A stretch of DNA of 64,000 nucleotides from a bacterium (GTDB lineage Bacteria; Patescibacteriota; Minisyncoccia; Phycocordibacterales; UBA2100), in assembly GCA_021781955.1 (NCBI GenBank), contig JAJXVV010000001.1:26688-90687 (forward strand), given 5' to 3'. Under the pieces are notes generated by a model. It made no database searches. It saw only the letters and a program-made list of their open reading frames with translations, and was not told the origin of the DNA. Positions 586-47,282 of this stretch are shown here, piece after piece. How positions within the stretch are numbered: position 1 is the stretch's first letter; each line of letters starts with the position of its first letter. The position numbers and the translations under genes are program-made.

Positions 586-3078
586 GTGGAAATTGCTATT
601 ATTCCTGTAATGAAAAGGGGATCGAGTCGGGGTTTATCATTGATCGCCATCGTCGGACTTGTAGCGGTAATATCGGCTACTCAATTTTGGTCTCGATACA
701 CGGATATTCTCATTTCGACTCGGGTCACGCAGCTTGCCGCGACCGCAAGCACCGGGACGCTTACACCCCAAAACGCGGTGCTGAGCATCGACATAACCAA
801 TCTCGCTGAGGGGACAGACGCTAGCTGCCCTCAGGCAACCGCAAGCGCCGATTACCGGTCCGGTGAATCACAACAGTATTGTGCTGACTCGATGCCAACG
901 CCTTCAACACAATGCGTCACGAACTACGGGGGTACAACAGCCTCAATCGTACCAAAATCACAAGTAGCCGCTGGGGCAGCCGCCACCTGCAAAACACCAA
1001 TGCGGCAAAATCTTTGTCTCAAAACCTGTACATATCATGTGCAGCAATCGGGAGTGAACTTTACGGTCAATGGAACCTGCAGTAAACAAAATACCTGTCG
1101 AGGTTTAACGTATAAAGACAGCACAGGGACGCACAGTCTACAGAATGTTGCTTCGACCGGTGGATTGGTTGGCCGGCCAACGGCTCCCGGCGGTGCTGGG
1201 CCCCTTCCGCCCGTCCCACCTGCTAGCGGCGCTCCTGGGGATACTACCGGCGGAGCAAGTACGGGAAATACCAACCAGACAAATACCGGTACAGCATCTG
1301 GAAACGGTTCTTCTGTCTCGCCCACGAACCCCGTCCTCACACCACCAGGTGGAACGGCTGGGCTGGGAGCAGGGGGGGCTTCGCCGGCCCCGGGGAACGG
1401 CGCTGTTGCCGGCCGCACGGGCAGTGGGACAGTCGGCGGTGGCGGTACGGACGTTTTGAATTCTGGCACCTACCAGCCGGTCAATAACTTGCAAAACCCG
1501 GTCACAACGACGCCAGTACCGGCTTCGCCGGCTATCAATCCAGGTATCACGACAAAGCCGGTCACAGCCACTCCCACCGCCAGCCCGGTGGTCGCTACGA
1601 CGCCGATCTCCGGAGGGCCCATCGTGAGCGCGTCTCGCCCGGCCGCTTCATCGCCTGGCTCATACAGCGTCCCGAATACCTACGCTAACCCCTCCTCTTC
1701 GTTCTCTCCATCGTATCCATCCGGCTCTCCCAATGCGAACTCATCGATCAACTCATTCGCGGCGCCGGGCATAAATTCCAGCGGTGGAGGCGCCTTCGCA
1801 TCGTTCTTCTCGGGCGTCGTGGCAGGACTCCTCTCGACGCCGGTGCAGACCGTTTCCGACGTGGTCAACACCATCGTCTCGCCGACACCTGCCCCGTCCC
1901 GCATCATCGAGACGCCAGGCTTCAGCCAGCCGCAATCCGCGTCCCCGCAACAGCAGCAGACCCCGAGCATCTTCCTCGTCGAACCAGGACAGCAAGGCGC
2001 GCTGAGAACCATGCAGATCTCGCAGCCGATCGATATCTTCGCCGCTACACCCGCGCAGGGCGGCCCCGCAGGGAACCCGAACGCCGCTATCAATGGCATC
2101 GGTGCCGCCGACCAACAGGGCAACACGCCAAACGTCACCTCCCTCCTCGACCTCTCGTCGCAAGCGCCGCAGATACTTCCGATGTTGCCTCCGTCGGATA
2201 ATCCCGCAACGTACGCCGTCACCCAGGCAACGTCCGGCCTATCGCCTGTCCCAAGCGTCTCGCAAGAGCTCGTGCCTCAAACCGGGTCCGGCACGATGAA
2301 CACGCCGACCGCAAGTCCAATAAATCTGCTCGCCCCGAGCCTGGGTACCCTCGTCTCGGGTCTCGCCAAAGGCTGGACGGGCGGCAACACGCTGTACGAA
2401 GACGCCGCCGCGCTCGCGCAGACGCAGTCCAACCGCAACGAGATCGACGCGCAGATCCAGGCGCTCAACATGCTCGATGCGGCAGGTCTGTGCGGCCAGG
2501 ATTGCACGAATGCGCTCGCGTCGCTGCAGAGCAGTCGTTCGGTGACGCAAGCGCGTGTCGATGCGCTCACCAAGGCGGTCGCCAACGACCAGACCGGCGC
2601 GTCTTCGACCACCGCCCTTCCCTCGCCCGCTACCCAGATGGGGCAGATCGTTTCCGATATCGTGAACACGATGCAAGAGGTCGTGAGCTCGGGCAATAGC
2701 GGGACCGCCGCGCCCGGCGCTTCCAGCAGCGGCAATGCTGCCGCGCAGAGCGGCGCGATCCAGTATCCCGGCGTACCGGTCCTGCCGCTTCCGGGCAAGG
2801 TAGTGGCCATTCTCCCTGCCGAGACCGCATCGTCCTCGTACACGTACGCGTACCAGAACGAGACCTCGGTGCCGGTCGTGCAGGTGGCGAGCGATAATGG
2901 CACAGGCATGGCGGGAACCGGCAGCCAGAACCTCTTGAGCGGCGACGGCATCGGTAAACTCATCCTGAATGCGTGGAACTTCATCACGAACTTCTTCATG
3001 CCGCAGCCGCAAGCGGCTGCCGCGGCTCCGGCACCCTCGTGCTCGCTCCTCCTCTCGCTCTTCGGCGGCTGCCGTTAG
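586..3078 (+). CDS. large secreted/cell-surface protein with N-terminal signal anchor, Cys-rich module and long Pro/Thr/Gly/Ser low-complexity tracts
   Basis: 830-aa ORF downstream of an AT-rich promoter-like region (positions 480-585). N-terminal hydrophobic segment RGLSLIAIVGLVAVISA. About 12 Cys in the first 200 aa, then extended P/T/S/G-rich regions. Function unknown. Confidence 0.55.
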   Translation: MEIAIIPVMKRGSSRGLSLIAIVGLVAVISATQFWSRYTDILISTRVTQLAATASTGTLTPQNAVLSIDITNLAEGTDASCPQATASADYRSGESQQYCADSMPTPSTQCVTNYGGTTASIVPKSQVAAGAAATCKTPMRQNLCLKTCTYHVQQSGVNFTVNGTCSKQNTCRGLTYKDSTGTHSLQNVASTGGLVGRPTAPGGAGPLPPVPPASGAPGDTTGGASTGNTNQTNTGTASGNGSSVSPTNPVLTPPGGTAGLGAGGASPAPGNGAVAGRTGSGTVGGGGTDVLNSGTYQPVNNLQNPVTTTPVPASPAINPGITTKPVTATPTASPVVATTPISGGPIVSASRPAASSPGSYSVPNTYANPSSSFSPSYPSGSPNANSSINSFAAPGINSSGGGAFASFFSGVVAGLLSTPVQTVSDVVNTIVSPTPAPSRIIETPGFSQPQSASPQQQQTPSIFLVEPGQQGALRTMQISQPIDIFAATPAQGGPAGNPNAAINGIGAADQQGNTPNVTSLLDLSSQAPQILPMLPPSDNPATYAVTQATSGLSPVPSVSQELVPQTGSGTMNTPTASPINLLAPSLGTLVSGLAKGWTGGNTLYEDAAALAQTQSNRNEIDAQIQALNMLDAAGLCGQDCTNALASLQSSRSVTQARVDALTKAVANDQTGASSTTALPSPATQMGQIVSDIVNTMQEVVSSGNSGTAAPGASSSGNAAAQSGAIQYPGVPVLPLPGKVVAILPAETASSSYTYAYQNETSVPVVQVASDNGTGMAGTGSQNLLSGDGIGKLILNAWNFITNFFMPQPQAAAAAPAPSCSLLLSLFGGCR

Positions 3079-3882: not shown

Positions 3883-3892
3883 GCAGAAACAC

Positions 3893-3917
3893 AAAACCCG
3901 CCTTGCGGCGGGTTTTG
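3893..3917 (-). terminator. rho-independent terminator (duplicate of the tuf terminator)
   Basis: Minus-strand CAAAACCCGCCGCAAGGCGGGTTTTG: GC-rich stem followed by a U-tract. Confidence 0.6.
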
Positions 3918-3940
3918 CTGCGATGCTTCGTTGGGAAGGG

Positions 3941-4147
3941 CTACGCGACGATCTTCGTCACGACGCCGGCGCCGACGGTCTTGCCACCCTCGCGGATGGC
4001 GAAACGCATCTGCTCTTCCATGGCGATCGGGCCCTGCAACTTGACCTTGAAGGTCACGGTGTCGCCCGGCATCACCATCTCCACGCCCTCCTTGAGGGTC
4101 ACCTCGCCGGTGACATCGGTGGTGCGGATGTAGAACTGCGGCTTGTA
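3941..4147 (-). pseudogene. tuf': truncated EF-Tu C-terminal fragment (tuf 3' remnant)
   Basis: Encodes the same C-terminal 68 aa as full-length EF-Tu (...[42 protein letters not shown]). Similarity stops abruptly at 4148, so no N-terminal part is present. Confidence 0.85.
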
Positions 4148-5215: not shown

Positions 5216-5371
5216 AATATGCCGCTGTGAGAAGGATTGTCGCTATGTGTGTATTCATTTGAATCCCGCGACATTGTCTGCCTGCGAACAGACGCGGCCG
5301 ACACGCTTTGGTGGTCATGCGCGAATGTGTACACGTAAGGTACACGATGTCAACAAGTAGCATCGTAACAC

Positions 5372-5396
5372 AAAACCCGCCTTGCGGCGGGTTTTG
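5372..5396 (-). terminator. rho-independent terminator of tuf
   Basis: Hairpin CCCGCCGCAAGGCGGG plus U-tract on the minus strand immediately after the tuf stop. Confidence 0.65.
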
Positions 5397-5419
5397 CTGC
5401 GATGCTTCGTTGGGAAGGG

Positions 5420-6619
<1,200 letters not shown>

Positions 6620-6907: not shown

Positions 6908-9142
6908 CTAGAGCTCATTGAATGCCGGCACGACGTTGACCACCTGTGACTGTGAGGATGCCGTACCGTTGAGCAGATCTGTGCACGAGAGCGTGAAGGT
7001 CGTTTGTCCTTGGATCGGGTCCGAGAGTGTGTCGGTCGCTGAGAGTTCGGTCCAGACGACGGAGGTGGCGGTGTTGGAAACAGCGCAGGTCTTCATGTAG
7101 GAGGTGCTCCACGACACTTTGACCTGGGTGCCCTTTTTGACCAGGGTCGGCTTCACGGTGAAAGAGCCGACGATCCCTGGCGGGACCGTATTGCATGTGT
7201 CGGTGGAACCGGAGCAGCCGAACAGGCAAAAATTGGTCATGGCGCTGGTGCAGCTGTTATGCAAGTTGCCATCCGACCCGCAGATGTTCGTGGGTACACA
7301 CTGAGCAGATATGCACTGGCCGGCCTGGTTGCAGCCGGCAGCACAGACCTGCGTGAGCGTCCCGGTGCAGGCATTGTAGAGGTTGCCGTCGGCCCCGCAG
7401 GTGTCGCTGAGCGTGCAGGTGTTCGGGTTGCATTGGTTGGTCGTCGTGGAGCAGCCGTATCCGCCGCAGCTCGTTTCAGTGCCGCAAGAGTTGGCGATGT
7501 TGCCGTCGGCCTGGCAGCTCATGATTACATTGCCGCTGCTGTCGGTTTGAGGAATGCAGGTGTTGGAGGAGCTGGCAGAGGAGCAGGTGGCGGTTTGGGG
7601 AGTAGCGTTTGGTGACGAGCTCGATGCGGTCCACGTTATGTTCACCGCACCATCACCACCAGCACCACCTCCCGTTCCGATCGGCGTGTTTTGACCACCA
7701 GCACCCACCACAACAGGGATGGATGCGCCCGCCGTGAGATCACCGGCATTGTAGGCTTTTTCTACATAGCCGCCGGAGCCACCGCCGAGACAGGCGACAA
7801 GCCACCAGATGCCGCCGGAACAGCCGCCTCCGCCGCCCGGCGCCACGCCGTTCCAATTCGGGTTTGCGGTCATGTTCGGACTGTACCCGCCGATACCGCC
7901 ATTGGGTGCGCTACCGCCGACGGCGGTTATGTGGGTCGGGTCAACGCTCCAATCAGGCAAATTGCCAGGAATGTTCACGTCCCCCCCTGAGGCGGAACCG
8001 CCGGAGACGTATTGACCTCCAACACCCCCACCCCCGCCTGCGATGAGCGTGCCGTTGAACGTAGAGTTACCGCCGAAGGTGCCGTACTGATCGCCATATA
8101 GTATGGATCCGATGGCGCTGTGCTGTCCGCCACCCCACGCTTGGACGGTGAGGGTGCCGTATCCTCCTTGTGGGACGGTGAAAGAATATGAGCCGGGAGT
8201 GGTGTAGGTTTGGGAGCCTGCATTGCTGGTATTCGCGATCACACATTGCGTCCTGTTCGCGCTCAAGGTCGAGCCTGTTGGGCAGCTATACACCGTACCC
8301 GTGTAAGTGCCTGATGGCACGACCGCTGAACCGGAATTGCTAACGTCACCGATACTTTGAATGAAGAAATCGTTCGGCTGGCCGGTCGAAGACCATGAAA
8401 GCGTCTGGGTCTGACTGCTCGACGCGGCAGTGGGATTCGTAACGAGCGAACAGGACAATGATCCTGTGCTTGGTGACGAGGTCGACGCGGTCCACGTTAT
8501 GTTCACCGCACCATTACCACCATAGCCAGTCCCATAAGCGTTCGGTGTGCTTGTATCACCAGCACCCACCACAACAGGGATGGATGCGCCCGCCGTGAGA
8601 TCACCGGTATTGTAGGTTTTTTCTACATAGCCGCCGGAGCCACCGCCGAAACAGGCGACAAGCCACCAGATGCCGCCGGAACAGCCGCCTCCGCCGCCCG
8701 GCGCCACGCCGTTCCCATTCGGGTTTGCGGTCATGTTCGGACTGAACCCACCGATACCGCCATTGGGTGCGCTACCGCCTATGGCGGTTATGTTGCCATA
8801 ACCCTCGATGGGCATGTTGCCAGGAGTGTTCACGTCCCCCCCTGAGGCGGAGCCGCCGGAGATGTATTGGCCTGGAACGGTCCCTCCTCCGCCTGCGATG
8901 AGCGTGTTGTTGAACGTAGAGCCCGCGCCGGGGGTGGCGTACTGATCTCCATATAGTATGGTCCCGATGCCACCGTGCTGTCCGGCGCCCCACACTTGGA
9001 CGGTGAGGGTGCCGTAGCTCGGGACGGTGAAAGAATATGAGCCGGGAGTGGTGTAATTTTGGGAACCCGCCAGAGCGGCAAGCGGCATTGCGATCACGAG
9101 CACGGAAATCAGCGAGAGAATGGATCGTTGGTTCATGCGCAT
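6908..9142 (-). CDS. secreted glycine-rich-domain protein (tandem Gly_rich-like modules + Cys-rich EGF-like region + C-terminal beta domain); paralog of 44758-46572
   Basis: 744 aa with signal peptide. Two internal repeats of about 230 aa (SYSFTVP..GTLTVQVWGAGQHGGIG...GGGGGCSGGIWWLVAC.GGGSGGYVEK) resembling the 'glycine rich protein' domain. C-terminal Cys-rich segment and final 100-aa domain align closely with the protein at 44758-46572. Confidence 0.7.
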   Translation of the reverse strand: MRMNQRSILSLISVLVIAMPLAALAGSQNYTTPGSYSFTVPSYGTLTVQVWGAGQHGGIGTILYGDQYATPGAGSTFNNTLIAGGGGTVPGQYISGGSASGGDVNTPGNMPIEGYGNITAIGGSAPNGGIGGFSPNMTANPNGNGVAPGGGGGCSGGIWWLVACFGGGSGGYVEKTYNTGDLTAGASIPVVVGAGDTSTPNAYGTGYGGNGAVNITWTASTSSPSTGSLSCSLVTNPTAASSSQTQTLSWSSTGQPNDFFIQSIGDVSNSGSAVVPSGTYTGTVYSCPTGSTLSANRTQCVIANTSNAGSQTYTTPGSYSFTVPQGGYGTLTVQAWGGGQHSAIGSILYGDQYGTFGGNSTFNGTLIAGGGGGVGGQYVSGGSASGGDVNIPGNLPDWSVDPTHITAVGGSAPNGGIGGYSPNMTANPNWNGVAPGGGGGCSGGIWWLVACLGGGSGGYVEKAYNAGDLTAGASIPVVVGAGGQNTPIGTGGGAGGDGAVNITWTASSSSPNATPQTATCSSASSSNTCIPQTDSSGNVIMSCQADGNIANSCGTETSCGGYGCSTTTNQCNPNTCTLSDTCGADGNLYNACTGTLTQVCAAGCNQAGQCISAQCVPTNICGSDGNLHNSCTSAMTNFCLFGCSGSTDTCNTVPPGIVGSFTVKPTLVKKGTQVKVSWSTSYMKTCAVSNTATSVVWTELSATDTLSDPIQGQTTFTLSCTDLLNGTASSQSQVVNVVPAFNEL

Positions 9143-9143
9143 A

Positions 9144-9584
9144 TCATTTGACTGTTATCGTCGCGCTCTGCTGCGCACCATCGGAGAACGATGTGGTACC
9201 GGCTTGCGCGAACGTATATTGCCAGAAATCGCCCGCCTGGAGCGTGGGGGCTCCAGGGATCGAGAGCAAAAGCGGCCGAGATGAGGCGTTGAAGAAACGA
9301 ATGGTGCTCCCTGTGCTGATGGTCGCGACGGCCGGTACAAAGCCCTGATCGGTGTAGGAAACCAAGAGCGCGAACGGCTTATCTTGGAGCGCTTGCGTGC
9401 TGTGCTCCGGTGTGAAGGGTGTTTGAGGCAATGTTCTCGTTTGCTGCGCGCGGAGCGGTTGCGATACCGGTCGGTTCACCAAAAAAGCACCGACTGCGGC
9501 GACGAGCACGAACAAAACCGCGGCGACTGCGGCGACGAGCACGAGGAACGCAACGTATGTGCGGATGGAGTGGCGCGGGTGCAT
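9144..9584 (-). CDS. small membrane-anchored protein with cupredoxin-like beta-domain (no metal ligands evident); paralog of 46585-47037
   Basis: 146 aa. N-terminal TM helix, then about 100 aa ...LVSYTDQGFVPAVATISTGSTIRFFNASSRPLLLSIPGAPTLQAGDFWQYTF..ATITVK. Gene is immediately upstream of the Gly-rich protein gene. The same arrangement occurs at the second locus. Confidence 0.55.
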   Translation of the reverse strand: MHPRHSIRTYVAFLVLVAAVAAVLFVLVAAVGAFLVNRPVSQPLRAQQTRTLPQTPFTPEHSTQALQDKPFALLVSYTDQGFVPAVATISTGSTIRFFNASSRPLLLSIPGAPTLQAGDFWQYTFAQAGTTSFSDGAQQSATITVK

Positions 9585-40672: not shown

Positions 40673-41419
40673 ATGGCCACCGTGAGCCGACCGCACCCAT
40701 TCCACGTCCTGCGAGACATCGGGCTTTCCGAGAAGGAAGCGACGATCTACATCACGCTTCTTGGCCAGCAGCGGATGACCATTGCATATCTCGCGCGATC
40801 ATCGGGGATCAAGCGCGCGACCTGCTACGAACATCTCGACCAGCTTTTAGCACGCGGCTTCATACGAAGAATACCGGTCGGTAAGCGCATGATGTATACC
40901 GCCACAGAGCCTAAGCGCATCCTTTCTGATTTCAAGAGAAAGACTGCGCTGCTCGAACAGAGCGTGTATGAGATGACCGATATGCACGAGACAGCCATGA
41001 ATAAACCGAAGATCAGCTACTTCGAGGGGAAGCACGAGATCAGGACTATTTATGAAGATCTTTTCAAAACATCTGGTGATGTCTACTCAATCTTCCCTGC
41101 CGCAGCTTTCCTCGAGAATTTCACCGAGGGTGATTACGAGGAATTCGACAAACGGATCAACCAACGCGGCCTCAAAAGCCGTGACTTACTCGTGAACGAC
41201 AAATTCTATAAGAAGATCGAGGAAATACGGGCTAAAAATGAAGGGAATAAGTCCCATAAAAGGCTCCCTCCGTGGTTCACGTGTAACGTTGATGTGCTTG
41301 TATTTGCGGATAAAATAGCTCTCATAGGACTAAGGGACCTATCGGGGATCGTCATTGAGAACAGGGATATAGCTTTACTTTTCAAGAACCTGCACGATTT
41401 TCTTTGGGAATACGCTTGA
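40673..41419 (+). CDS. TrmB-family HTH transcriptional regulator
   Basis: N-terminal wHTH (DIGLSEKEATIYITLLGQQRMTIAYLARSSGIKRATCYEHLDQLLARGFI) plus C-terminal TrmB-like domain. Lies in a lower-GC region. Confidence 0.7.
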   Translation: MATVSRPHPFHVLRDIGLSEKEATIYITLLGQQRMTIAYLARSSGIKRATCYEHLDQLLARGFIRRIPVGKRMMYTATEPKRILSDFKRKTALLEQSVYEMTDMHETAMNKPKISYFEGKHEIRTIYEDLFKTSGDVYSIFPAAAFLENFTEGDYEEFDKRINQRGLKSRDLLVNDKFYKKIEEIRAKNEGNKSHKRLPPWFTCNVDVLVFADKIALIGLRDLSGIVIENRDIALLFKNLHDFLWEYA

Positions 41420-41454
41420 ATCTAAAGGACATTTAATGTCCTTTATCATGTCCC

Positions 41455-41877
41455 TTACAAAATCTGCTCAAAAAGCCGGCAATGGGCAACTCTTTTGGTC
41501 GTGTCGAGATATACGCCGACCGCATCTATTTGGAATTCCCTGCTGTCCTCATTCTGAGCCATGTATGATTGAGCAGTCCTCGCTATCTTTCTCAATTTTG
41601 CCTGATGTATCTGCTCTTCCGGTCGGTATCCCGACGTCTCACGTGAACCATTGTATCCTGGCGGCAGGCCAGACAATGTCTTCACCTCAATGAATCGGAC
41701 AACCCCGGCTTTTTCTGCAATTATGTCGATCTCACCCCACGGTTTACGGTAATTCCTCTCAATGATGACAAATCCTTTTCTCTCAATGAATCGCGCTGCC
41801 GCACTTTCACCAATCCTCCCAATCTCCTTCCGCTTTGAATTCTCCATCTGTGAATTATACAGACTTACTTGGCGCAT
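41455..41877 (-). CDS. yraN: YraN-family (UPF0102) endonuclease-like protein
   Basis: …IGESAAARFIERKGFVIIERNYRKPWGEIDIIAEKAGVVRFIEVKT… matches the YraN/restriction-endonuclease-like fold signature. Confidence 0.75.
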   Translation of the reverse strand: MRQVSLYNSQMENSKRKEIGRIGESAAARFIERKGFVIIERNYRKPWGEIDIIAEKAGVVRFIEVKTLSGLPPGYNGSRETSGYRPEEQIHQAKLRKIARTAQSYMAQNEDSREFQIDAVGVYLDTTKRVAHCRLFEQIL

Positions 41878-41884
41878 TTCACGT

Positions 41885-41911
41885 GAACCATGTTTCTAAG
41901 AAACATGGTTC
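41885..41911. promoter_or_regulatory. perfect 13-bp inverted repeat with 1-nt spacer (GAACCATGTTTCT A AGAAACATGGTTC)
   Basis: Read directly in the AT-rich intergenic region upstream of yraN. Nearby copies of TCACGTGAACCA occur at about 41640 and 41878. Could be an operator or a bidirectional terminator. Confidence 0.6.
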
Positions 41912-42231
41912 TTGTACTTCATTGGTGGGAATGATGATCTCAATCATTTGATGAGCCGTAATATCCGCATATGGACACGTATTACATGCGTCCTTTTAAA
42001 CATGTCCTTTATCCACAGTATCCACAGACTTTTCCACACATCGTTTGCGGTCATTTGTATCGAGCACGGCGAATTTGGGATGAAGAGCAGGGCTCTTTGT
42101 CTCTTGAATTATCGACTTTGAGAGTTTGTTTCTGCCAACATTCTGCGGACCTATCGGCTCAGAATCGTCATGCTTTACAACACGAAACGCGCCTTGACGT
42201 ATAGGCAGGCCACATACTACGGTGGCCATGT

Positions 42232-43212
42232 ATGGAACATGAAAGGGTTTCTTATTACAAGTCGCTCCTTTCCGCGTGCGCGGGCTTGGCTCTTTTTGCG
42301 TTCTTCATGCTCCCGACGAGTGCGTTCGCTCTACAAGTGCAAAGCCAGACAGCACAGCTCTTACCTCCAGGAGGGAGTAGCTGCGCACCGATCACTATTA
42401 CCAGCGTGACACCGTACGTGTACAGCGACGGTCTCAACTCTTTTGAATTCACGGTCTCTGATCCTTCCTACGTTGCGGTGTTGGCTTCGGTAGGGAAGGT
42501 GACCGAACCGCTCAACTTCATTACTCGCTATGCGGACCCCTCTGGCGGCGTGCGCGTCCATGTGGATATTAATTCGACGCCAGTTGGTCAGACAGTACCG
42601 ACCGTGGTCACGTTGCTTTCGGCACGCCCCGGCGCGCCGGTCTGCGCTGCGGTCGTCGCCATCGACTTCAGCGCCGGTGCCTCGAACGTCGTGCCGGCTG
42701 TCAGCCAGAGCGCCGCTCCGGCCTACCCGACGGCAACAACTGACCGCCAGCGCCCAGCGGCCGCGTCGCCGACAGGCCACATCGGGGCGACCCCGACGAC
42801 CGGAGCCTCGCAGGCGAGCGCGGCAATAGGTGTCGCTGCCGGCATTGCCACGCCGCTCACCATCAAGCCGCTGTGCTCGTCTGATGCGGTCGCGTATCGG
42901 ACGTGGCTCATGCTGCTTGTGCTGTACGCGGTCTTGGTCGGCGGTCTCCTCTGGCTCGAGTTTCCACTCAGCTGGACGTGGGCGAGGACGCCTGAGCGCC
43001 TCGCGACCATTATTCTTGCGGCACTCGTCCTCCTGCTCGGTTTCTGGTACTTCTCGATCTCATGCCGCGCAGCACTGTGGATGCCGCTCCTTGCGTTCCT
43101 TATCTCGATCCTTGGATTGCTTGCGGCCTTCTGGAACCACCCGAAGGTGACGCAGCTCCTCTTACTCGAGGAAAAGACGGCGATCATCACGCCCCCGTCG
43201 GTGAGAAAGTAG
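42232..43212 (+). CDS. hypothetical secreted/membrane protein (signal peptide, Ala/Pro/Thr-rich linker, C-terminal TM helices)
   Basis: 326 aa with no recognisable catalytic motifs. Confidence 0.5.
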   Translation: MEHERVSYYKSLLSACAGLALFAFFMLPTSAFALQVQSQTAQLLPPGGSSCAPITITSVTPYVYSDGLNSFEFTVSDPSYVAVLASVGKVTEPLNFITRYADPSGGVRVHVDINSTPVGQTVPTVVTLLSARPGAPVCAAVVAIDFSAGASNVVPAVSQSAAPAYPTATTDRQRPAAASPTGHIGATPTTGASQASAAIGVAAGIATPLTIKPLCSSDAVAYRTWLMLLVLYAVLVGGLLWLEFPLSWTWARTPERLATIILAALVLLLGFWYFSISCRAALWMPLLAFLISILGLLAAFWNHPKVTQLLLLEEKTAIITPPSVRK

Positions 43213-43268
43213 TTCAGCGATTGCCGCTGCGCGCAGCTCCGGGTATAATCCCTCGGTACGTGCAGCAC

Positions 43269-43339
43269 GCGGGCATGGTTTAATGGTAGAACGCTACCTT
43301 GCCAAGGTAGAGATCGGAGTTCGATTCTCCGTACCCGCA
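43269..43339 (+). tRNA. tRNA-Gly (anticodon GCC)
   Basis: GCGGGCA..GTTTAATGGTAGAAC..CTACC-TTGCCAA-GGTAG..CGGAGTTCGATTCTCCG-TACCCGC-A. One C-A mismatch in the acceptor stem. Confidence 0.72.
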
Positions 43340-43467
43340 CAAACGTCAGCAGCCAGAATATCCAACCGTGAAGCCCCGAAATCAGTCGAGATCGGTTCGA
43401 TACCGCGATGCGTTGCTGGTCGAGAACCTGCAGGGATGGTTCGTGAAAAGGAGGTTGTGCGACCGCC
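43337..43467. repeat. 131-bp imperfect direct repeat, copy 1 (copy 2 at 44557-44688, about 85% identical)
   Basis: GCAC(A/G)…GTCAGCAGCCA(G/C)AATATC…GAAATCAGTCGAG…GATACCGCGATGCGTTGCTG…GGTTCGTGAAAAGG(A/G)G(G/A)TTGTGCGAC is shared by both copies. Copy 1 starts within the last 3 nt of tRNA-Gly(GCC). Confidence 0.8.
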
Positions 43468-43476
43468 TCCCTGGAC

Positions 43477-44226
43477 GTGTACAATCCGAGCATGTCTCCG
43501 CTCGCAAGCCGCGCCCACATCGTCTTCACCACCCTCTTTCTATACCACTTCGCCCGCCGCCCCGCCCGAGGCATCCGCAAGACGCCGTTCGGGAAGTATG
43601 ATCGGCTGCTGTTTCGCAATGCTGGCGAGTCGCCGCTCGCCCTGTTGCTGAAAGAACAGCTCATTGCAGAGCCGAGTGCTGTGGAGGTCCTGGTGAAGAA
43701 AGGGGCGGATCAGCATATCGACGACACTGATCTGGAGTCGGTCATCATAGCGGTCCGCGAAGAGCCGAATACGCTGTTCATTCTCGTGTACGAAGGCGAA
43801 GTCCCCTCAGACGACTACCTCCGCCTCTTCCGCGCCTTCGCGCGGCACCAGATCGTCATCCTGCCGCTGGGAGAAAAGGATCTCGCCAGCTTGGAGAGAT
43901 GGGTCGGGAATGGCAATTGCAACGCTTGCCTCGTGTACCTCACCCTGCTCGCCGACAAGGTGACGTCCGAAGACGAGCGCCTGCCCGAGCGGTATGCATA
44001 CCGGATGCAGCGGCAGCAGGAAGCAAATCGCGCCCGTCTCGAGCGCATGGGGAAGCTGGAGGGACCGCAGCTGCGGACGCTCGTGAAGCTGCTCTCCTTC
44101 CTCCTCTCGTTCGAGAGGGCGGGAAGCGAGGTGTCGGAAGCCTGTCGCGCCTCCAGGATCTCCCGCAAGACCTTCTACCTCTGGCGCGACAAAAACCCAA
44201 TCTTCCGAACGCTGCTCGATGCATGA
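43477..44226 (+). CDS. hypothetical protein with C-terminal helix-turn-helix (transposase/terminase-small-like HTH); N-terminal alpha/beta domain with weak TIR-like features
   Basis: C-terminus SEACRASRISRKTFYLWRDKNPIF is a typical HTH_23/28-type motif. N-terminal KYDRLLFRN…LFILVYEGEVPSDDYLRLFRAFARH faintly resembles the TIR betaA and betaD-alphaD segments, but the domain is too short for a canonical TIR. Confidence 0.45.
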   Translation: MYNPSMSPLASRAHIVFTTLFLYHFARRPARGIRKTPFGKYDRLLFRNAGESPLALLLKEQLIAEPSAVEVLVKKGADQHIDDTDLESVIIAVREEPNTLFILVYEGEVPSDDYLRLFRAFARHQIVILPLGEKDLASLERWVGNGNCNACLVYLTLLADKVTSEDERLPERYAYRMQRQQEANRARLERMGKLEGPQLRTLVKLLSFLLSFERAGSEVSEACRASRISRKTFYLWRDKNPIFRTLLDA

Positions 44227-44556
44227 GTCAGCCTGAGACTGCGGGAAACTACACATCTAGGACGCCCTGCCGTGTCTCATTCCGTGTAATTGTCTAGCTG
44301 CCAAAACTCCAAAATTTTGGCATTGTTTGGCTTTTCGGTTCGCAACCGCGTTGCATCGACGGAAACGGCCTCGGATTCCCGAAATGTCCTTACGGGGCTT
44401 GCTGGAATCCTCAAAAGCACTCTAAAACCGAACAATCCAAACCTCGTCGATTTCCCAACATCCACCACCGACCGCGAGGCATTGGCGATGTACGATTGAG
44501 GGCCCCCAGAAAATCCTTGTGTTGCCTCACTGGTGGGGGTGCGGTACCGTGAGGGG

Positions 44557-44688
44557 GCACACGAGTCAGCAGCCACAATATCAAGCCGTGAGGCCTCGAA
44601 ATCAGTCGAGGTCGGCCGATACCGCGATGCGTTGCTGAGTGGAAACCTGCAGAGGTGGTTCGTGAAAAGGGAGTTGTGCGACGTCGCC
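44557..44688. repeat. 131-bp imperfect direct repeat, copy 2
   Basis: See copy 1. No ORF follows this copy. Confidence 0.8.
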
Positions 44689-44757
44689 GGTGGATCGCGG
44701 GTGGACTGCCCGATTAATTTCGCGAGGGTAACGCGGTGGATGTCGCGCGGACGCGGC

Positions 44758-46572
44758 TCAATTCTCTTTGAACACGGGTACGATATTGACCGTCTGACTC
44801 TGCGAAAGGGCCGGATTGATCGGATCGGTGCATGAGAGTGTGAACACCGTCTGTCTTTCGATGGGGTTCGATACTTGGCTCGTTCCCACGAGTCCGGTCC
44901 ACTGAAGCGCGTCGGCGCTGTTTGTAACGATGCAGGTCCTCATGCTCGCCACGTTCCACGACACCTTGACCTGCGTGCCTTTGGTGACCAAAGTCGGCGC
45001 GACGCTGAAACGAAGTATCTGCCCGGGGAGCTTCGTATTGCAGAGATTGGTCGTGGCGGAGCAGCCGTACTGGCAGCTCTGCTCGATTGCACCGGTACAG
45101 CTGTCGTGGATGTTGCCGTCCGACTCGCAGAGGCCGGTTGACACGCACCCGGTCTGGATGCACTTGCCGCTCTGAGTGCAACCGGCGACACAGGTCATAT
45201 CGAGCGCGCCCGTGCAGGCGTTGTAGAGGCTGCCATCGGTTTTGCAGAGGTCGGGGAGCTGGCAGCTCGCATTGCACTGGTTGGTGGCGGTGGAGCAGCC
45301 GTTGCCGCCACAGCTCGTTTCGGTGCCGCAGGAGTTGGCGAGATTGCCGTCGGCTTGGCAGATGAGGATGGAATTGCCCGAGGAGTCGACCTGCGGGGTG
45401 CAGGAGTTTGAACCGTTTCCGCCGACGGTGGCGGAACACATCGCGGTTTGAGGAGCAGTCAGATCGCCGCCCCAACTGATGACGACCGATCCGTCGATAT
45501 TCGACGGGGACCCTCCGCCCGTCGTCGTGGTGCAGCTCGATACGCCAGTGCCGTTACAGTAGCCCGAACCGCCGCCGCCGCCGCCGCCCGCAACGACCGA
45601 ATCCGCCGAGCACCATGCGCCGCCGCCGCCGCCCGCGCCGCCGTACAGGCCTCCGCCGCCGCCCGCGCCGCCCGCAAATCCGAGGAATCCGCCGTACCCG
45701 GCGCCGCCGTGCAACATAGTGCCGTTGGCACCGGCAAGCATTTCAGCATAGGCAATACCGCCGCTCGTCTGCGAGGCTCCTCCGCCCGGACTGCAGGACG
45801 AGAGCGCGTCGCCACCGGAAAGCCCCCCTCCAAAACCGCCGGTTCCGCTACCCGCTCCGCCCCCTCCGCCGCCAGCCGTCATTACATCGGCACCACCAAC
45901 GACGATCGCGCTGCGACCGCCGCCGCCATATCCGGTCGATAATAACTTGCTTGCTCCGTTTGCCCCTCCTCCGTATCCGCCGCCCACACCGCTGCCCGCT
46001 TTTCCTGCGATCACTGTCAACACCTGCCCGGGAGTAACCGCCAAAATCCCTTGCGTGTAGCCGCCATTGCCGCCGCCGCCCGAAACATACCTGATTCCGG
46101 TGATAGAATCCGCTACCACTTGCCCCTGGGCCCCGGCGCCTCCGGCACCCGTTAGCTCCACCCTCACGGAAGTAATCCCTTGTGGCACGGTAAACGTCTG
46201 ATCCGCGCCGGTCGCACTGAAGGTCTGGCTTTGCGTGCCGCCGCTCGAGGAAGTGCATGTCGAGCGATCCGCCGCCAACGCGTACCCGCTCGGACACGCG
46301 TAGACGGTGCCGGTGTAAACGACCGTGGTTTGCGATAACGGCACGGTCGTTGAGCCCGCGGTCGGAAAATCGCCAAGATACGGAATCGCCGGATCGGTCG
46401 AATCAATCGTGAAATCGATCGGATTGCCGGTCGACGACCACGTAAGCGTCGCGCTTTGGCTGGATGCGCCCGACATCGGAGCCGCGCTCAAGGTGCAGGC
46501 GAGATTCGCGAACGCGATGAGTGGAGTCGCCAAGCAAACGAACGGAAGCGCAAGTAACGAACGCCGGATCAT
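44758..46572 (-). CDS. secreted glycine-rich-domain protein (Gly_rich-like module + Cys-rich EGF-like region + C-terminal beta domain); paralog of 6908-9142
   Basis: 604 aa with signal peptide. QTFTVPQGITSVRVELTGAGGAGAQG…GGGGNGGYTQG…VTPGQVLTVIAGKAGSG matches the Gly-rich-protein domain pattern. The C-terminal 250 aa align residue-by-residue with the paralog (CQADGNLANSCGTETSCGG.GCST.TNQCN…KGTQVKVSW…). Confidence 0.7.
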   Translation of the reverse strand: MIRRSLLALPFVCLATPLIAFANLACTLSAAPMSGASSQSATLTWSSTGNPIDFTIDSTDPAIPYLGDFPTAGSTTVPLSQTTVVYTGTVYACPSGYALAADRSTCTSSSGGTQSQTFSATGADQTFTVPQGITSVRVELTGAGGAGAQGQVVADSITGIRYVSGGGGNGGYTQGILAVTPGQVLTVIAGKAGSGVGGGYGGGANGASKLLSTGYGGGGRSAIVVGGADVMTAGGGGGGAGSGTGGFGGGLSGGDALSSCSPGGGASQTSGGIAYAEMLAGANGTMLHGGAGYGGFLGFAGGAGGGGGLYGGAGGGGGAWCSADSVVAGGGGGGGSGYCNGTGVSSCTTTTGGGSPSNIDGSVVISWGGDLTAPQTAMCSATVGGNGSNSCTPQVDSSGNSILICQADGNLANSCGTETSCGGNGCSTATNQCNASCQLPDLCKTDGSLYNACTGALDMTCVAGCTQSGKCIQTGCVSTGLCESDGNIHDSCTGAIEQSCQYGCSATTNLCNTKLPGQILRFSVAPTLVTKGTQVKVSWNVASMRTCIVTNSADALQWTGLVGTSQVSNPIERQTVFTLSCTDPINPALSQSQTVNIVPVFKEN

Positions 46573-46584
46573 AGACCGCGATGT

Positions 46585-47037
46585 TTATTTGATCGTTATC
46601 GTACCACGCGAGCCGCTCGAGCCGTTGGAGAACGAGACGGTTCCAATCTGCGCGAAATCGGTTTGCCAGTACTCGCCTGGCTGGAGCGTCGGCGCTCCTT
46701 GAAGAGAAAGCGCGAGCGGCGTTGTGGAATTGTTGATAAAACGAACAGTGTCACCTGCCTTGATGGTCGCCGTTTGCGGCAAAAAACCTTGTCCAGCGTA
46801 CGAGACAATCAGCGCCAGCGATGTTCCTTTGAGCGCAGCCGTCCCGTGTTCCGCCACGAATGGTCCGGGGGACAAGCCATTGGCAACCTGTCGCGCATCC
46901 GTTGCGGGCGCAGGCTCGCGGCCGATGAAGCGCGTCCCGGCGGCAACGACCGCGTAGAATATCGCCGCAATAGCGACAACGAGGAGAAGAAGCGCGACGT
47001 ATGTGCGTATCGAGTGCCTTGGAATCACGGCGTTCAT
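46585..47037 (-). CDS. small membrane-anchored cupredoxin-like beta-domain protein; paralog of 9144-9584
   Basis: 150 aa. Shares PRHSIRTYVA-LLLVVA… TM anchor and …LIVSYAGQGFLPQTATIKAGDTVRFINNSTTPLALSLQGAPTLQPGEYWQTDFAQIGT…TITIK with the paralog. Confidence 0.55.
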   Translation of the reverse strand: MNAVIPRHSIRTYVALLLLVVAIAAIFYAVVAAGTRFIGREPAPATDARQVANGLSPGPFVAEHGTAALKGTSLALIVSYAGQGFLPQTATIKAGDTVRFINNSTTPLALSLQGAPTLQPGEYWQTDFAQIGTVSFSNGSSGSRGTITIK

Positions 47038-47210
47038 TGTACCAACCCGCGCACGCCGCCGCGCGGTTATTCACACGTATCCAACGACTACAATACCGTT
47101 CAAAATGCCTAGAAAGTAAGCCGGAAAATATCCGCAGGTGAATTAGCCATGTTTTCTCTGTACCTGATGTTCGAGGCACCATGGACGCATGAGCGGGCCG
47201 CTGACTGCTG

Positions 47211-47282
47211 TGCTCCCGCCAGGATTCGAACCTGGAACGACAGTTCCGAAGACTGTTGTGATATCCATTTCACCACGGGAGC
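47211..47282 (-). tRNA. tRNA-Arg (anticodon TCG)
   Basis: GCTCCCG..GTGA-AATGGATA-TCAC..ACAGT-CTTCGGA-ACTGT..CCAGGTTCGAATCCTGG-CGGGAGC-A. Confidence 0.8.

What the first reader, a model, noticed from the sequence alone, without database searches (positions are those of the whole stretch)
43337..44688. About 131-bp imperfect direct repeats flank an HTH-containing ORF immediately downstream of tRNA-Gly(GCC)
Two copies of a 131-bp non-coding sequence (about 85% identical) sit 1.1 kb apart. The first begins inside the last nucleotides of tRNA-Gly(GCC) and ends in a strong RBS (AAAAGGAGG) feeding the ORF at 43477. The ORF encodes a 249-aa protein with a C-terminal transposase/terminase-small-like HTH. 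Its N-terminal domain has faint TIR-like betaA and betaD-alphaD features (KYDRLLF…, …LVYEGEVPSDDYLRLFRAFARH), but it is too short to be a canonical TIR. The second copy is followed by a lower-GC non-coding stretch at 44230-44550. This layout could be degraded attL/attR ends of a small tRNA-targeting integrated element. Alternatively, the repeat could be a structured 5'-leader or sRNA present in two copies: both copies conserve a CAGCAGCC…GCGTTGCTG pairing and the RBS-proximal GTGAAAAGG(A/G)G.
Basis: partly seen in the sequence, partly recalled or inferred. Interest (0 to 1): 0.58.

Follow-up and report, generated by a model that had tools for sequence, protein, structure and literature searches.

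The report
Junction repeats in a tRNA-flanked islet
The two roughly 127-base repeats are real and have a third, truncated inverted copy; they sit at the joints of a 3.9-kb variable insert wedged between two tRNA genes of a candidate-phyla bacterium, and the gene they bracket encodes a rare nuclease-like DNA-binding protein, not a TIR protein.

Summary
Copy c1 (43337-43463) and copy c2 (44557-44682) are 86% identical. They are the only full copies in the 64-kb window.

New findings:
- A third, partial copy (c3, minus strand 47213->47164) abuts tRNA-Arg.
- All three copies start in register with a terminal GCA: of tRNA-Gly, of a conserved non-coding element, and of tRNA-Arg.
- A syntenic relative (L073) has only 128 nt between the two tRNAs, so window 43341-47209 is a variable islet.
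- A closer relative (L004) has c1 (split by a truncated serine-recombinase gene), the ORF and the downstream element. It lacks c2, the 604-aa gene and the 150-aa gene.
- The ORF belongs to a very small Parcubacteria family. In every complete locus recovered it is followed by a conserved 150-500-nt non-coding element, and homologues outside the window/L004 clade show no c upstream where sequence is available.
- AAAAGGAGG is not its RBS.

Most likely c is a discrete hairpin-bearing "head" unit copied to GCAC-ended RNA-gene ends as the islet grew, and kept as a trailer or insulator. It is not a classical attL/attR pair and not a leader of the ORF. The mechanism is inferred, with moderate confidence.

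The parts
43269..43340 (+). tRNA-Gly(GCC); left border of the islet. Promoter-like TTGCCG-17-TATAAT at 43221-43249.
   Evidence: ARAGORN; Rfam 67.9 bits; promoter scan.
43337..43463 (+). Repeat copy c1 (127 nt). Starts on the tRNA's terminal GCA. Long imperfect hairpin at repeat positions 11-82 (43347-43418). Invariant blocks AACCTGCAG and GTTGTGCGAC near the 3' end.
   Evidence: It is 86.6% identical to the orthologous copy in L004, whereas the ORF plus downstream element is 77-79% identical.
43492..44226 (+). N-terminal restriction-endonuclease-like domain (residues ~1-160), helical linker, C-terminal HTH (~190-244). A -10-like TACAAT at 43480-43485 suggests a leaderless mRNA.
44244..44562 (+). 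Conserved non-coding element that follows the gene of this family in every complete locus recovered. Block A is at 44244-44291 (GAAACTACACA...GTGTCTCATTCCGTGTAA) and block E at 44510-44562 (CCTTGTG...GGTACCGTGAGGGGGCAC). The element ends in GGGGCAC.
   Evidence: Alignment of 7 loci; nhmmer hits only downstream of family genes, E 1e-8 to 1e-16. In L069 an IS1595 splits it between blocks A and E. No Rfam match.
44335..44354 (+). Degenerate partial copy of the repeat (positions ~56-75) inside the non-coding element. It is clearer in L004 (3647-3674, 93% over 28 nt) and L010.
44557..44682 (+). Repeat copy c2 (126 nt). It starts on the GCAC that ends the conserved non-coding element. No ORF follows it on this strand.
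   Evidence: Similarity to the c1 flank stops sharply at the repeat's 3' end. Absent from L004.
44698..44712 (+). Terminator-like hairpin CGGGTGGACTGCCCG followed by ATTAATTT, 16 nt after c2, facing the end of the convergent 604-aa gene.
   Evidence: Consensus scan; not tested further.
44758..47037 (-). Cargo of the second half of the islet: the 150-aa gene (46585-47037) and the 604-aa Gly/Cys-rich secreted-protein gene (44758-46572). They are paralogues of the 146-aa/744-aa operon at 6908-9584.
   Evidence: ORF list; BLASTP 52% and 41-61% identity. Absent from L004 and L073.
47164..47213 (-). Repeat copy c3: partial (positions 1-50, ~64% identical), inverted. It starts on the terminal GCA of tRNA-Arg and precedes the 150/604-aa operon in the same direction.
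   Evidence: Positions 51-127 are not significantly similar.
47210..47282 (-). tRNA-Arg(TCG); right border of the islet.
   Evidence: ARAGORN and Rfam. It has the same convergent partner in L073 and L004.

Best explanation
The repeats are copies of one discrete, about 127-nt, hairpin-bearing non-coding unit, here called c. The unit sits at every joint of a 3.9-kb variable islet lodged between the convergent tRNA-Gly(GCC) and tRNA-Arg(TCG) genes of a Kaiserbacteria-like (Parcubacteria, CPR) genome.

Each copy begins exactly on the terminal GCA of an RNA gene or RNA-like end and heads a different cargo:
- c1 follows tRNA-Gly and heads the nuclease-like/HTH gene plus its conserved non-coding element.
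- c2 follows that element's GGGGCA end and heads nothing.
- c3 follows tRNA-Arg, is inverted and truncated, and heads a paralogous 150/604-aa secreted-protein operon.

Shown: the anatomy, the empty site in a relative, the unit's sharp borders, its in-register starts, and its higher conservation than the flanking DNA.

Inferred: the islet grew by successive events that joined DNA at a short GCAC(A) core. These events were either site-specific recombination or microhomology-guided copying. The unit has since been kept by selection as a hairpin trailer that ends or processes the upstream RNA transcript and separates it from the cargo, whose gene appears to have its own leaderless promoter.

The unit is neither a classical attL/attR pair nor the ORF's leader or RBS.
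For: - Repeats verified, and only two full copies in 64 kb.
- Third copy at tRNA-Arg: the c2 18-mer with up to 3 mismatches hits only c1, c2 and c3, against 0.08 expected. A local alignment of positions 1-50 gives p about 0.007-0.018, and a global alignment beats 1000 of 1000 shuffles.
- All three copies start on GCA|CA. Homologues of the non-coding element that lack c2 also end in GGGGCAC(A), so the junction is shared sequence.
- Empty site: L073 keeps the same gene order (RNase Y, HU, protease, YraN, 326-aa homologue, CCA enzyme, Xer-like, MgsA) with only 128 nt between the tRNAs and no c.
- L004 has tRNA-Gly, c1, ORF and element, then 16 nt, then tRNA-Arg. It lacks exactly c2 through c3.
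- c is a discrete unit. Similarity between the c1 and c2 flanks ends at position 127.
- A recombinase gene fragment is inserted inside c at position 91/92 in L004.
- c is 86.6% identical between the window and L004, about the same as the tRNA. ORF plus element is 77-79% identical.
- The hairpin shape is kept, with an A-U to G-C change and a slipped compensation.
- c1 and c3 share the same layout: tRNA, then c, then co-oriented genes.
- The two other tRNAs in the window and the L073 spacer also carry trailer hairpins starting about 10 nt after the tRNA end.
Against: - Only three sequences of c exist (window c1 and c2, L004), so the structure cannot be tested by covariation.
- Fold energies of c are no better than dinucleotide shuffles (z +0.9 and +0.65 on the plus strand, -0.3 and -1.1 on the minus strand).
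- No canonical U-tract terminator follows the hairpin.
- Sequence conservation also covers segments predicted to be unpaired, which fits protein binding as well as RNA.
- No recombinase that could act on a GCAC core is present in the islet.
- c3 is short and 64% identical, and part of its match (GCA) is imposed by the tRNA end.
- The rest of the genome could not be searched. The pattern scans of public genome and metagenome collections returned only chance hits, so a dispersed family elsewhere in this genome is not excluded.
- The L004 difference could be a deletion rather than the absence of an insertion.
Confidence: 0.45

Rival explanations
1. Degraded attL/attR of a small element that integrated into tRNA-Gly through an integrase.
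For: - Inserted DNA sits at a tRNA 3' end, with an empty site in L073.
- Direct repeats bracket the ORF.
- A serine-recombinase gene remnant lies inside the repeat in L004.
- The ORF family sits in variable, mobile-looking neighbourhoods.
Against: - The repeat starts at the last 3-4 nt of the tRNA and runs downstream. It does not duplicate the tRNA 3' part.
- Identity is 86%, with no long identical core beyond 21 nt.
- No integrase lies between the copies. The nearest Phage_integrase gene is syntenic in the island-less L073 and is therefore probably Xer.
- L004 has the ORF module but no right-hand copy.
- A third, inverted copy lies at tRNA-Arg.
- Serine recombinases do not create long direct repeats.
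- c is conserved above the level of its flanks, which is unexpected for dead att scars.
Confidence: 0.15
2. A functional RNA made from the repeat itself: a tRNA 3'-trailer-derived small RNA or cis element, released by cleavage after the discriminator base and present in two to three gene copies.
For: - Every copy starts in register with the 3' end of an RNA gene.
- Conservation equals that of the tRNA.
- A conserved hairpin shows a few compensatory changes.
- All copies are co-oriented with the upstream RNA gene.
Against: - No Rfam family matches, even at E<=10.
- Fold z-scores are not significant.
- Some stems pair better on the minus strand (c1 apical stem).
- c3 keeps only the 5' 50 nt.
- It is not a leader of the ORF. 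Homologue loci with upstream sequence outside the window/L004 clade lack it, and the ORF has a -10 box 6-9 nt before its ATG.
- The idea does not by itself explain how new copies land in register.
Confidence: 0.2
3. A miniature non-autonomous transposable element (MITE, ERIC or REP-like palindromic unit) with copies that happen to cluster here.
For: - The size (127 nt), imperfect palindrome, short terminal inverted repeat GCACA(A)...(T)TGTGC and sharp borders fit this class.
- A fragment of it also lies inside the neighbouring non-coding element in three genomes.
Against: - No target-site duplication was seen.
- The terminal repeat is only 5-6 bp.
- All copies lie within one 3.9-kb islet, and none elsewhere in 64 kb.
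- None was found in the other fetched CPR loci, and exact-pattern scans of viral, genome and metagenome collections found none.
- The junction is always at GCA, which is not typical of MITEs.
Confidence: 0.1
4. A neutral leftover of a tandem duplication of [c-ORF-element], formed at a GCACA microhomology, with the second unit later truncated. The repeat would have no function.
For: - The c2 junction lies on a 5-nt sequence shared by the tRNA/c1 junction and the native end of the non-coding element. This is a typical microhomology signature.
Against: - No trace of a second ORF copy follows c2.
- c2 has diverged no faster than the L004 orthologue, at roughly 10% per branch.
- c is better conserved than coding DNA.
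- A second, inverted event at tRNA-Arg is also needed.
Confidence: 0.1

Closest known systems
Genomic islets at tRNA genes bounded by att-type direct repeats (tyrosine-integrase islands; SCC-like composite arrays built by large serine recombinases of the Ccr/XisF type)
   Same: Variable DNA is lodged at tRNA 3' ends, with an empty site in a relative. Repeats sit at each module joint, modules have unrelated cargo, and a XisF/CcrB-like recombinase remnant lies in the repeat of a relative.
   Different: The repeat lies downstream of the tRNA end rather than duplicating it. It is long (127 nt), only 86% identical and hairpin-shaped. One copy is inverted, and no functional recombinase is in the islet.
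Palindromic intergenic repeat units (ERIC/IRU 127 bp, Correia, RUP; MITE-like)
   Same: Similar length, an imperfect palindrome, location in transcribed intergenic DNA next to gene ends, and sharp borders.
   Different: Only 2-3 clustered copies are known, always starting on a GCA RNA-gene end. There is no target duplication and no dispersed family was detected.
tRNA 3' external transcribed spacers with their own function (my recollection of the E. coli 3'ETS-leuZ example; not checked here)
   Same: The sequence starts exactly after the tRNA discriminator, is co-transcribable from a strong tRNA promoter, and is conserved like the tRNA.
   Different: No transcript data and no target are known. 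One copy follows a non-tRNA element and one is truncated.
Restriction-endonuclease-like (PD-(D/E)xK fold) proteins fused to HTH domains, such as FokI/BspD6I cleavage domains and TnsA of Tn7 (TnsA comparison from memory)

Membership tests
attL/attR of a tRNA-integrating element | Direct repeats consist of the 3' part of the target tRNA gene (the core shared by attB and attP). | tested here: not met
   Only GCA(CA) is shared with the tRNA. No significant similarity of c or its flanks to tRNA-Gly or tRNA-Arg.
attL/attR of a tRNA-integrating element | An integrase or recombinase gene lies inside the bounded segment. | tested here: not met
   Between c1 and c2 there is only the 244-aa nuclease-like/HTH gene. 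The Phage_integrase gene about 3 kb away is syntenic in the island-less L073. L004 carries only a truncated serine recombinase.
attL/attR of a tRNA-integrating element | An uninterrupted (empty) site exists in relatives. | tested here: met
   L073 and L074 have tRNA-Gly, 128 nt, then tRNA-Arg.
Integron cassette attC site | R''/R' (RYYYAAC / GTTRRRY) and L''/L' boxes at symmetric spacing, forming a bulged hairpin, with IntI nearby. | tested here: not met
   The ends GCACAAAC and GTTGTGC match 6 of 7 each. However, the inner arm lies 2 nt from the 5' box and 35 nt from the 3' box, and no intI is present.
MITE / palindromic repeat unit | Terminal inverted repeats, target-site duplication, and many dispersed copies. 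| tested here: inconclusive
   A 5-6-bp terminal repeat only, and no duplication. There are 2 full plus 1 partial copies, all in one islet. The rest of the genome was not available.
Known structured RNA family (Rfam 15) | Covariance-model match. | tested here: not met
   Only tRNAs were found at the gathering threshold and at E<=10 for window 43200-44800, and at E<=1 in nine related loci.
TIR-domain protein (for the ORF) | Flavodoxin-like TIR fold with a catalytic Glu. | tested here: not met
PD-(D/E)xK restriction-endonuclease-like superfamily (for the ORF N-domain) | An alpha-beta-beta-beta-alpha-beta core fold. | tested here: met
PD-(D/E)xK restriction-endonuclease-like superfamily (for the ORF N-domain) | Catalytic D...(D/E)xK motif in strands 2-3. 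| tested here: inconclusive
   The invariant residues are E65, K69 (ExxxK on one strand) and D78, D80, E82 at a helix start. No conserved Asp lies on the preceding strand.
Terminase small subunit / transposase-type HTH (for the ORF C-domain) | Profile match above the curated threshold. | tested here: inconclusive
   PHROG 4102 E 4.4e-5; Pfam HTH_23, HTH_29 and HTH_Tnp_1 all below their cut-offs; IS481 and IS3 E 0.01-0.1. About 250 HTH-only relatives at E<=1e-3.
Diversity-generating retroelement TR/VR pair | Mismatches confined to adenines of one copy, with a reverse transcriptase nearby. | tested here: not met
   Mismatches are of all kinds. A YxDD motif scan found no reverse-transcriptase candidate in the window. 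Avd plus RT do lie next to homologues in L071 and L072, and an RT lies 2 kb away in L001. The family is not the CH1 or MSL accessory gene (PMC5758913).

The most novel reading that the evidence does not exclude
c, the nuclease-like/HTH gene and its conserved non-coding tail together form a previously undescribed small mobile module of CPR bacteria. In this reading the module inserts precisely after the terminal GCA of tRNA or tRNA-like ends. It uses the restriction-endonuclease-like/HTH protein in a homing-nuclease or TnsA-like role. Its own tail ends in a tRNA-acceptor-like GGGGCA that recreates a target, which would explain tandem and inverted accretion (c2, c3).
Probability: 0.1. Interest if true: 0.8.

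Novelty: new variant of a known kind. Interest (0 to 1): 0.42.

Why it matters
CPR bacteria have tiny genomes, and how they gain and shuffle genes is poorly understood. Here a precisely delimited islet between two tRNA genes can be compared across three states: empty, half-filled and filled. It carries a repeat unit that always joins at an RNA-gene end. It also carries a rare nuclease-like DNA-binding gene that is followed by its own conserved non-coding partner in every complete locus recovered. If the unit is a recombination or processing signal, it offers a handle on islet assembly in these organisms. If it is only a duplicated trailer, the locus is an ordinary example of tRNA-linked variability.

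Tried and rejected
1. Exact-pattern scans for the repeat found nothing related. The scan of species-representative genomes gave 52 hits and the JGI metagenome scan gave 2. All were chance matches in unrelated high-GC genomes with no extended similarity. Viral contigs gave none.
2. Phage or viral origin of the ORF: no relatives in IMG/VR, using either the single protein or the profile, and none in GenBank phages.
3. Repeat as coding sequence: copy 2 is open in one frame but copy 1 is frameshifted. Substitutions show no third-position bias (read).
4. Repeat or its flank as a tRNA-Arg or tRNA-Gly remnant: not significant.
5. Duplication extending past the repeat into a second ORF copy: no similarity.
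6. Integron attC layout: asymmetric arms, rejected.
7. DGR TR/VR pair: rejected.
8. Known DGR accessory genes CH1 and MSL: sizes and properties differ.
9. Secondary structure of the conserved downstream element. The block A hairpin has no covariation support. RNAalifold on blocks D-E gives only -2 kcal/mol. Block E folds alike in 4 of 9 sequences, with a few compensatory pairs by eye. This remains unresolved.
10. Neighbouring 617-aa genes in L065 and L067 are unrelated to the 604-aa gene.
11. The last contig look-up (P0007) returned no DNA.
12. The afdb50 fold library was unavailable.
Full report
**1. The observation**

The region was read and the repeats recovered independently by the repeat finder, blastn self-comparison and MAFFT.
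- Copy c1 is 43337-43463 (127 nt) and copy c2 is 44557-44682 (126 nt).
- They share 110 identical positions in 128 columns (86%), with one single-base indel. The blastn E-value within the window is 4.5e-36.
- An HMM and a covariance model run with filters off find no other full-length copy in the 64 kb.
- tRNA-Gly(GCC) is at 43269-43340, so c1 overlaps its last 3-4 bases.

The core observation is therefore correct. Four details are not:
- The unit is 126-127 nt, not 131.
- The lower-GC non-coding stretch (44227-44556, GC 0.54) precedes copy 2 rather than following it.
- AAAAGGAGG lies 22 nt from GTG 43477 and 37 nt from ATG 43492, too far for a Shine-Dalgarno site.
- All 23 aligned homologues begin at the ATG.

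**2. A third copy, and the register of all copies**

On the minus strand, immediately after the 3' end of tRNA-Arg(TCG) (47210-47282), the sequence GCACAGCAGTCAGCGGCC... matches the first 18 nt of the repeat.
- The first 18 nt of c2, allowing up to three mismatches, hit exactly three places in the window (c1, c2 and this site). Chance expectation is 0.08.
- The similarity extends to about position 50 (64% identity). The local alignment gives p about 0.007-0.018, and the global alignment beats all 1000 shuffles.
- Positions 51-127 are not significantly similar.

I call this copy c3 (47213->47164, minus strand).

All three copies begin in register with a terminal GCA:
- c1 begins on that of tRNA-Gly.
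- c3 begins on that of tRNA-Arg.
- c2 begins on the GGGGCA that ends a conserved non-coding element.

The two other tRNAs of the window have different trailers, though these are also hairpin-containing.

**3. The locus is a variable islet between two convergent tRNA genes**

The organism is a Parcubacteria (CPR) bacterium. Named homologues of the neighbouring 326-aa protein come from Candidatus Kaiserbacteria, and one homologue of the ORF is from Candidatus Yanofskybacteria. Several public contigs are 100% identical to the window.

Three states of the locus were recovered:
- L073/L074, a syntenic relative, keeps the same gene order on both sides: RNase Y, HU, trypsin-like protease, YraN and the 326-aa homologue on one side; CCA-adding enzyme, Exo_endo_phos, Xer-like integrase, metallo-beta-lactamase-fold protein and MgsA on the other. 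It has only 128 nt between tRNA-Gly and tRNA-Arg, and no c.
- L004, about 77% DNA identity, has tRNA-Gly, c1, the ORF and its non-coding element, then 16 nt, then tRNA-Arg. It lacks exactly the window segment 44557-47209, which holds c2, the 604-aa gene, the 150-aa gene and c3.
- The window itself carries a 3.9-kb insert at 43341-47209.

The islet has two halves. The second half carries paralogues (52% and 41-61% amino-acid identity) of the 146-aa/744-aa operon at 6908-9584 in the same window.

In L004 the repeat itself is split at position 91/92 by 634 bp. This insert carries a gene fragment equivalent to residues about 228-353 of an XisF/CcrB-type large serine recombinase.

**4. The repeat unit**

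c has sharp borders. Beyond position 127 the flanks of c1 and c2 are unrelated.

It contains a long imperfect hairpin (positions 11-82: CAGCAGCC...GCGTTGCTG, with inner stems) and a 5-6-bp terminal inverted repeat (GCACAA/TTGTGC).

Evidence on the hairpin across c1, c2 and the L004 copy is mixed:
- The overall shape is kept.
- There is one A-U to G-C double change and one slipped compensation.
- There are also several broken pairs.
- Some stems pair better on the minus strand.

Minimum free energies are not better than those of dinucleotide shuffles (z +0.9, +0.65, -0.3, -1.1). No Rfam family matches, even at E<=10. With three sequences no covariation test is possible.

c1 is 86.6% identical between the window and L004. 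By my count, the tRNA itself is about 87% identical. The ORF plus downstream element is 77-79% identical. The unit therefore appears to be under constraint. The conserved blocks include segments predicted to be unpaired (CCGCGA, AACCTGCAG, GTTGTGCGAC).

A fragment of c (positions about 56-91) also occurs inside the neighbouring non-coding element in L004 and L010. It is degenerate in the window. A 12-nt motif, GGTNCGNNACCG, occurs three times in this 1.2 kb, against about one expected in 64 kb.

**5. The ORF**

The family is very small. A word-indexed search of 5.8 billion proteins found 27 relatives. An exhaustive profile search of 1.84 billion representatives found about a dozen full-length matches and only 23 proteins at E<=1e-10. 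Most of the other matches (280 at E<=1e-3 in all) align only to the C-terminal HTH.

No Pfam, NCBIfam, PADLOC or PDB-sequence match passes threshold. There are only weak HTH matches, including PHROG 4102 'terminase small subunit' at E 4.4e-5.

An AlphaFold2 model built on the family alignment has mean pLDDT 83.6.
- Foldseek against the PDB gives nothing significant.
- No TIR structure appears in either list, so the TIR suggestion is refuted.
- The invariant residues (E65, K69, D78, D80, E82) do not form a canonical PD...(D/E)xK motif, so nuclease activity is undecided.

A -10-like hexamer (TACAAT, TATCAT or TATACT) lies 6-9 nt before the ATG in the window, L004, L005 and L010. This suggests a leaderless mRNA with its own promoter, which would place c1 outside the ORF's transcript.

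**6. The ORF's real conserved partner is downstream**

In every complete locus recovered, the family gene is followed by 150-500 nt of non-coding DNA with shared blocks. Block A is GAAACTACACA..GAGACAC..GTGTCTCATTCCGTGTAA. Block E is CCCTTGTG...GGTACCGTGAGGGGGCAC. This holds even in low-GC genomes with about 55% protein identity.
- nhmmer finds these blocks only there, once per locus.
- In L069 an IS1595 has inserted between them.
- No Rfam family matches.
- The block A hairpin has no covariation support.
- Block E folds similarly in four of nine sequences, with a few compensatory pairs by eye.

Whether this element is an RNA or an array of protein-binding sites is unresolved.

The repeat c, in contrast, was not detected upstream of the homologues in L010, L001, L065, L067, L068 and L071. 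By eye the first 62 nt of L005 resemble the 3' end of c, although the searches did not report this. c is therefore not a family-wide leader.

The neighbourhoods of the family differ from genome to genome:
- Pif1 helicase plus an AEP-SNF2 helicase.
- Avd plus reverse transcriptase of a DGR.
- A tail-fibre-like gene.
- Blocks of ORFans.

No relatives occur in viral collections. The protein is not one of the described DGR accessory genes (PMC5758913).

**7. Interpretation**

What is shown:
- A discrete unit is present at all three joints of a tRNA-flanked islet.
- Each copy is joined at GCA|CA.
- Each copy heads unrelated cargo.
- The unit is better conserved than its surroundings.
- A recombinase gene remnant lies inside it in a relative.

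What I infer: the islet was assembled by successive joins at a short GCAC(A) sequence. Homologues of the downstream element that lack c2 natively end in GGGGCAC(A). The c2 junction is therefore sequence shared by both partners. That is the signature both of a short recombination core and of microhomology-guided copying.

I also infer that the unit persists because its hairpin serves as a trailer that ends or processes the upstream RNA and insulates the cargo. This layout is shared by c1 and c3 (tRNA, then c, then co-oriented genes). It is echoed by the hairpin trailers of the other tRNAs.

I give this combined reading 0.45. The rivals are:
- a functional trailer-derived RNA (0.2);
- classical degraded att sites (0.15);
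- a MITE-like element (0.1);
- a neutral duplication remnant (0.1).

**8. Comparison with known systems**

The locus works like a small tRNA-linked genomic islet with junction repeats. The closest parallels are composite SCC-type arrays and tRNA islands. It fails the defining tests for att sites: the repeat is not the tRNA 3' part and there is no integrase. It also fails for integron attC (asymmetric arms, no IntI), for DGR repeats and for any Rfam family. The MITE test is inconclusive, because the rest of the genome could not be searched.

The ORF is a member of the restriction-endonuclease-like fold class by structure only.

**9. Verdict**

It is a lineage-restricted variant of a familiar theme, tRNA-adjacent variable DNA with junction repeats. 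A modest chance remains that the repeat, the nuclease-like/HTH gene and its conserved non-coding tail form a new kind of small mobile module. Interest 0.42.

Noticed in passing
window 44244-44562; L004 3556-3874; L010 905-1222; L005 817-1175; L001 4906-5139; L065 5990-6226; L067 5757-5997; L068 1611-1759; L071 3328-3471: In every complete locus recovered, the gene of the 244-aa family is followed by a conserved non-coding element with fixed first and last blocks, ending in GGGGCAC. It has no Rfam match. Whether it is RNA or protein-binding DNA is undecided. This gene-plus-element pairing looks undescribed.
   Followed up: partly
L004 2092-2725 (gene fragment 2121-2720, minus strand): A 5'-truncated large serine recombinase gene (XisF/CcrB-like residues ~228-353) is inserted inside the repeat at position 91/92. 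Its terminator hairpin (GACGAAAACACCGGAGAATTCTCCGGTGTTTTCGTC) uses 9 nt of the repeat.
   Followed up: partly
L071 443-2202 and L072 1792-3551; L001 6745-7791: DGR components lie directly upstream of two homologues of the ORF: bAvd plus a 357-aa reverse transcriptase, with an Lcl_C target candidate in L072. An RT gene lies 2 kb from a third homologue. The association may be functional or may just reflect shared residence in variable regions.
   Followed up: partly
L069/L070 1777-2691: An IS1595-family transposase gene is inserted in the conserved non-coding element, between its first and last blocks.
   Followed up: yes
L001 5140-5290: Right after the conserved element lies a tRNA-like 3' end (…CTCGTGGGTTCGACTCCCCCGAGCGCA) followed by a clean intrinsic terminator. 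Neither ARAGORN nor Rfam calls it.
   Followed up: no
window 3888-4147 and 5367-5626: A 260-bp, 100% identical direct repeat contains the 3' end of the EF-Tu gene (5420-6619, minus strand). It brackets a cytidylyltransferase-like gene and a NUDIX gene in a lower-GC stretch. It is either an att-like duplication at the tuf 3' end or an assembly artefact.
   Followed up: partly
window 6908-9584 vs 44758-47037; internal repeat 7609-8221 / 8470-9070: There are two paralogous operons for a ~150-aa protein plus a large Gly/Cys-rich secreted protein with no Pfam domains. The 744-aa gene also contains a 614-bp internal repeat at 86% identity.
   Followed up: partly
window 40673-41419 (low-GC region 41000-42000): A TrmB-family regulator gene lies next to tRNA-Pro(TGG). 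It is absent from the otherwise syntenic L073, so this is a second tRNA-adjacent indel in the same 8 kb.
   Followed up: no
window 43394, 44337, 44538 (all plus strand): The motif GGTNCGNNACCG occurs three times within 1.2 kb: in c1, mid-element and at the element end. About one occurrence is expected in the whole window. These are candidate binding sites for the HTH protein.
   Followed up: partly
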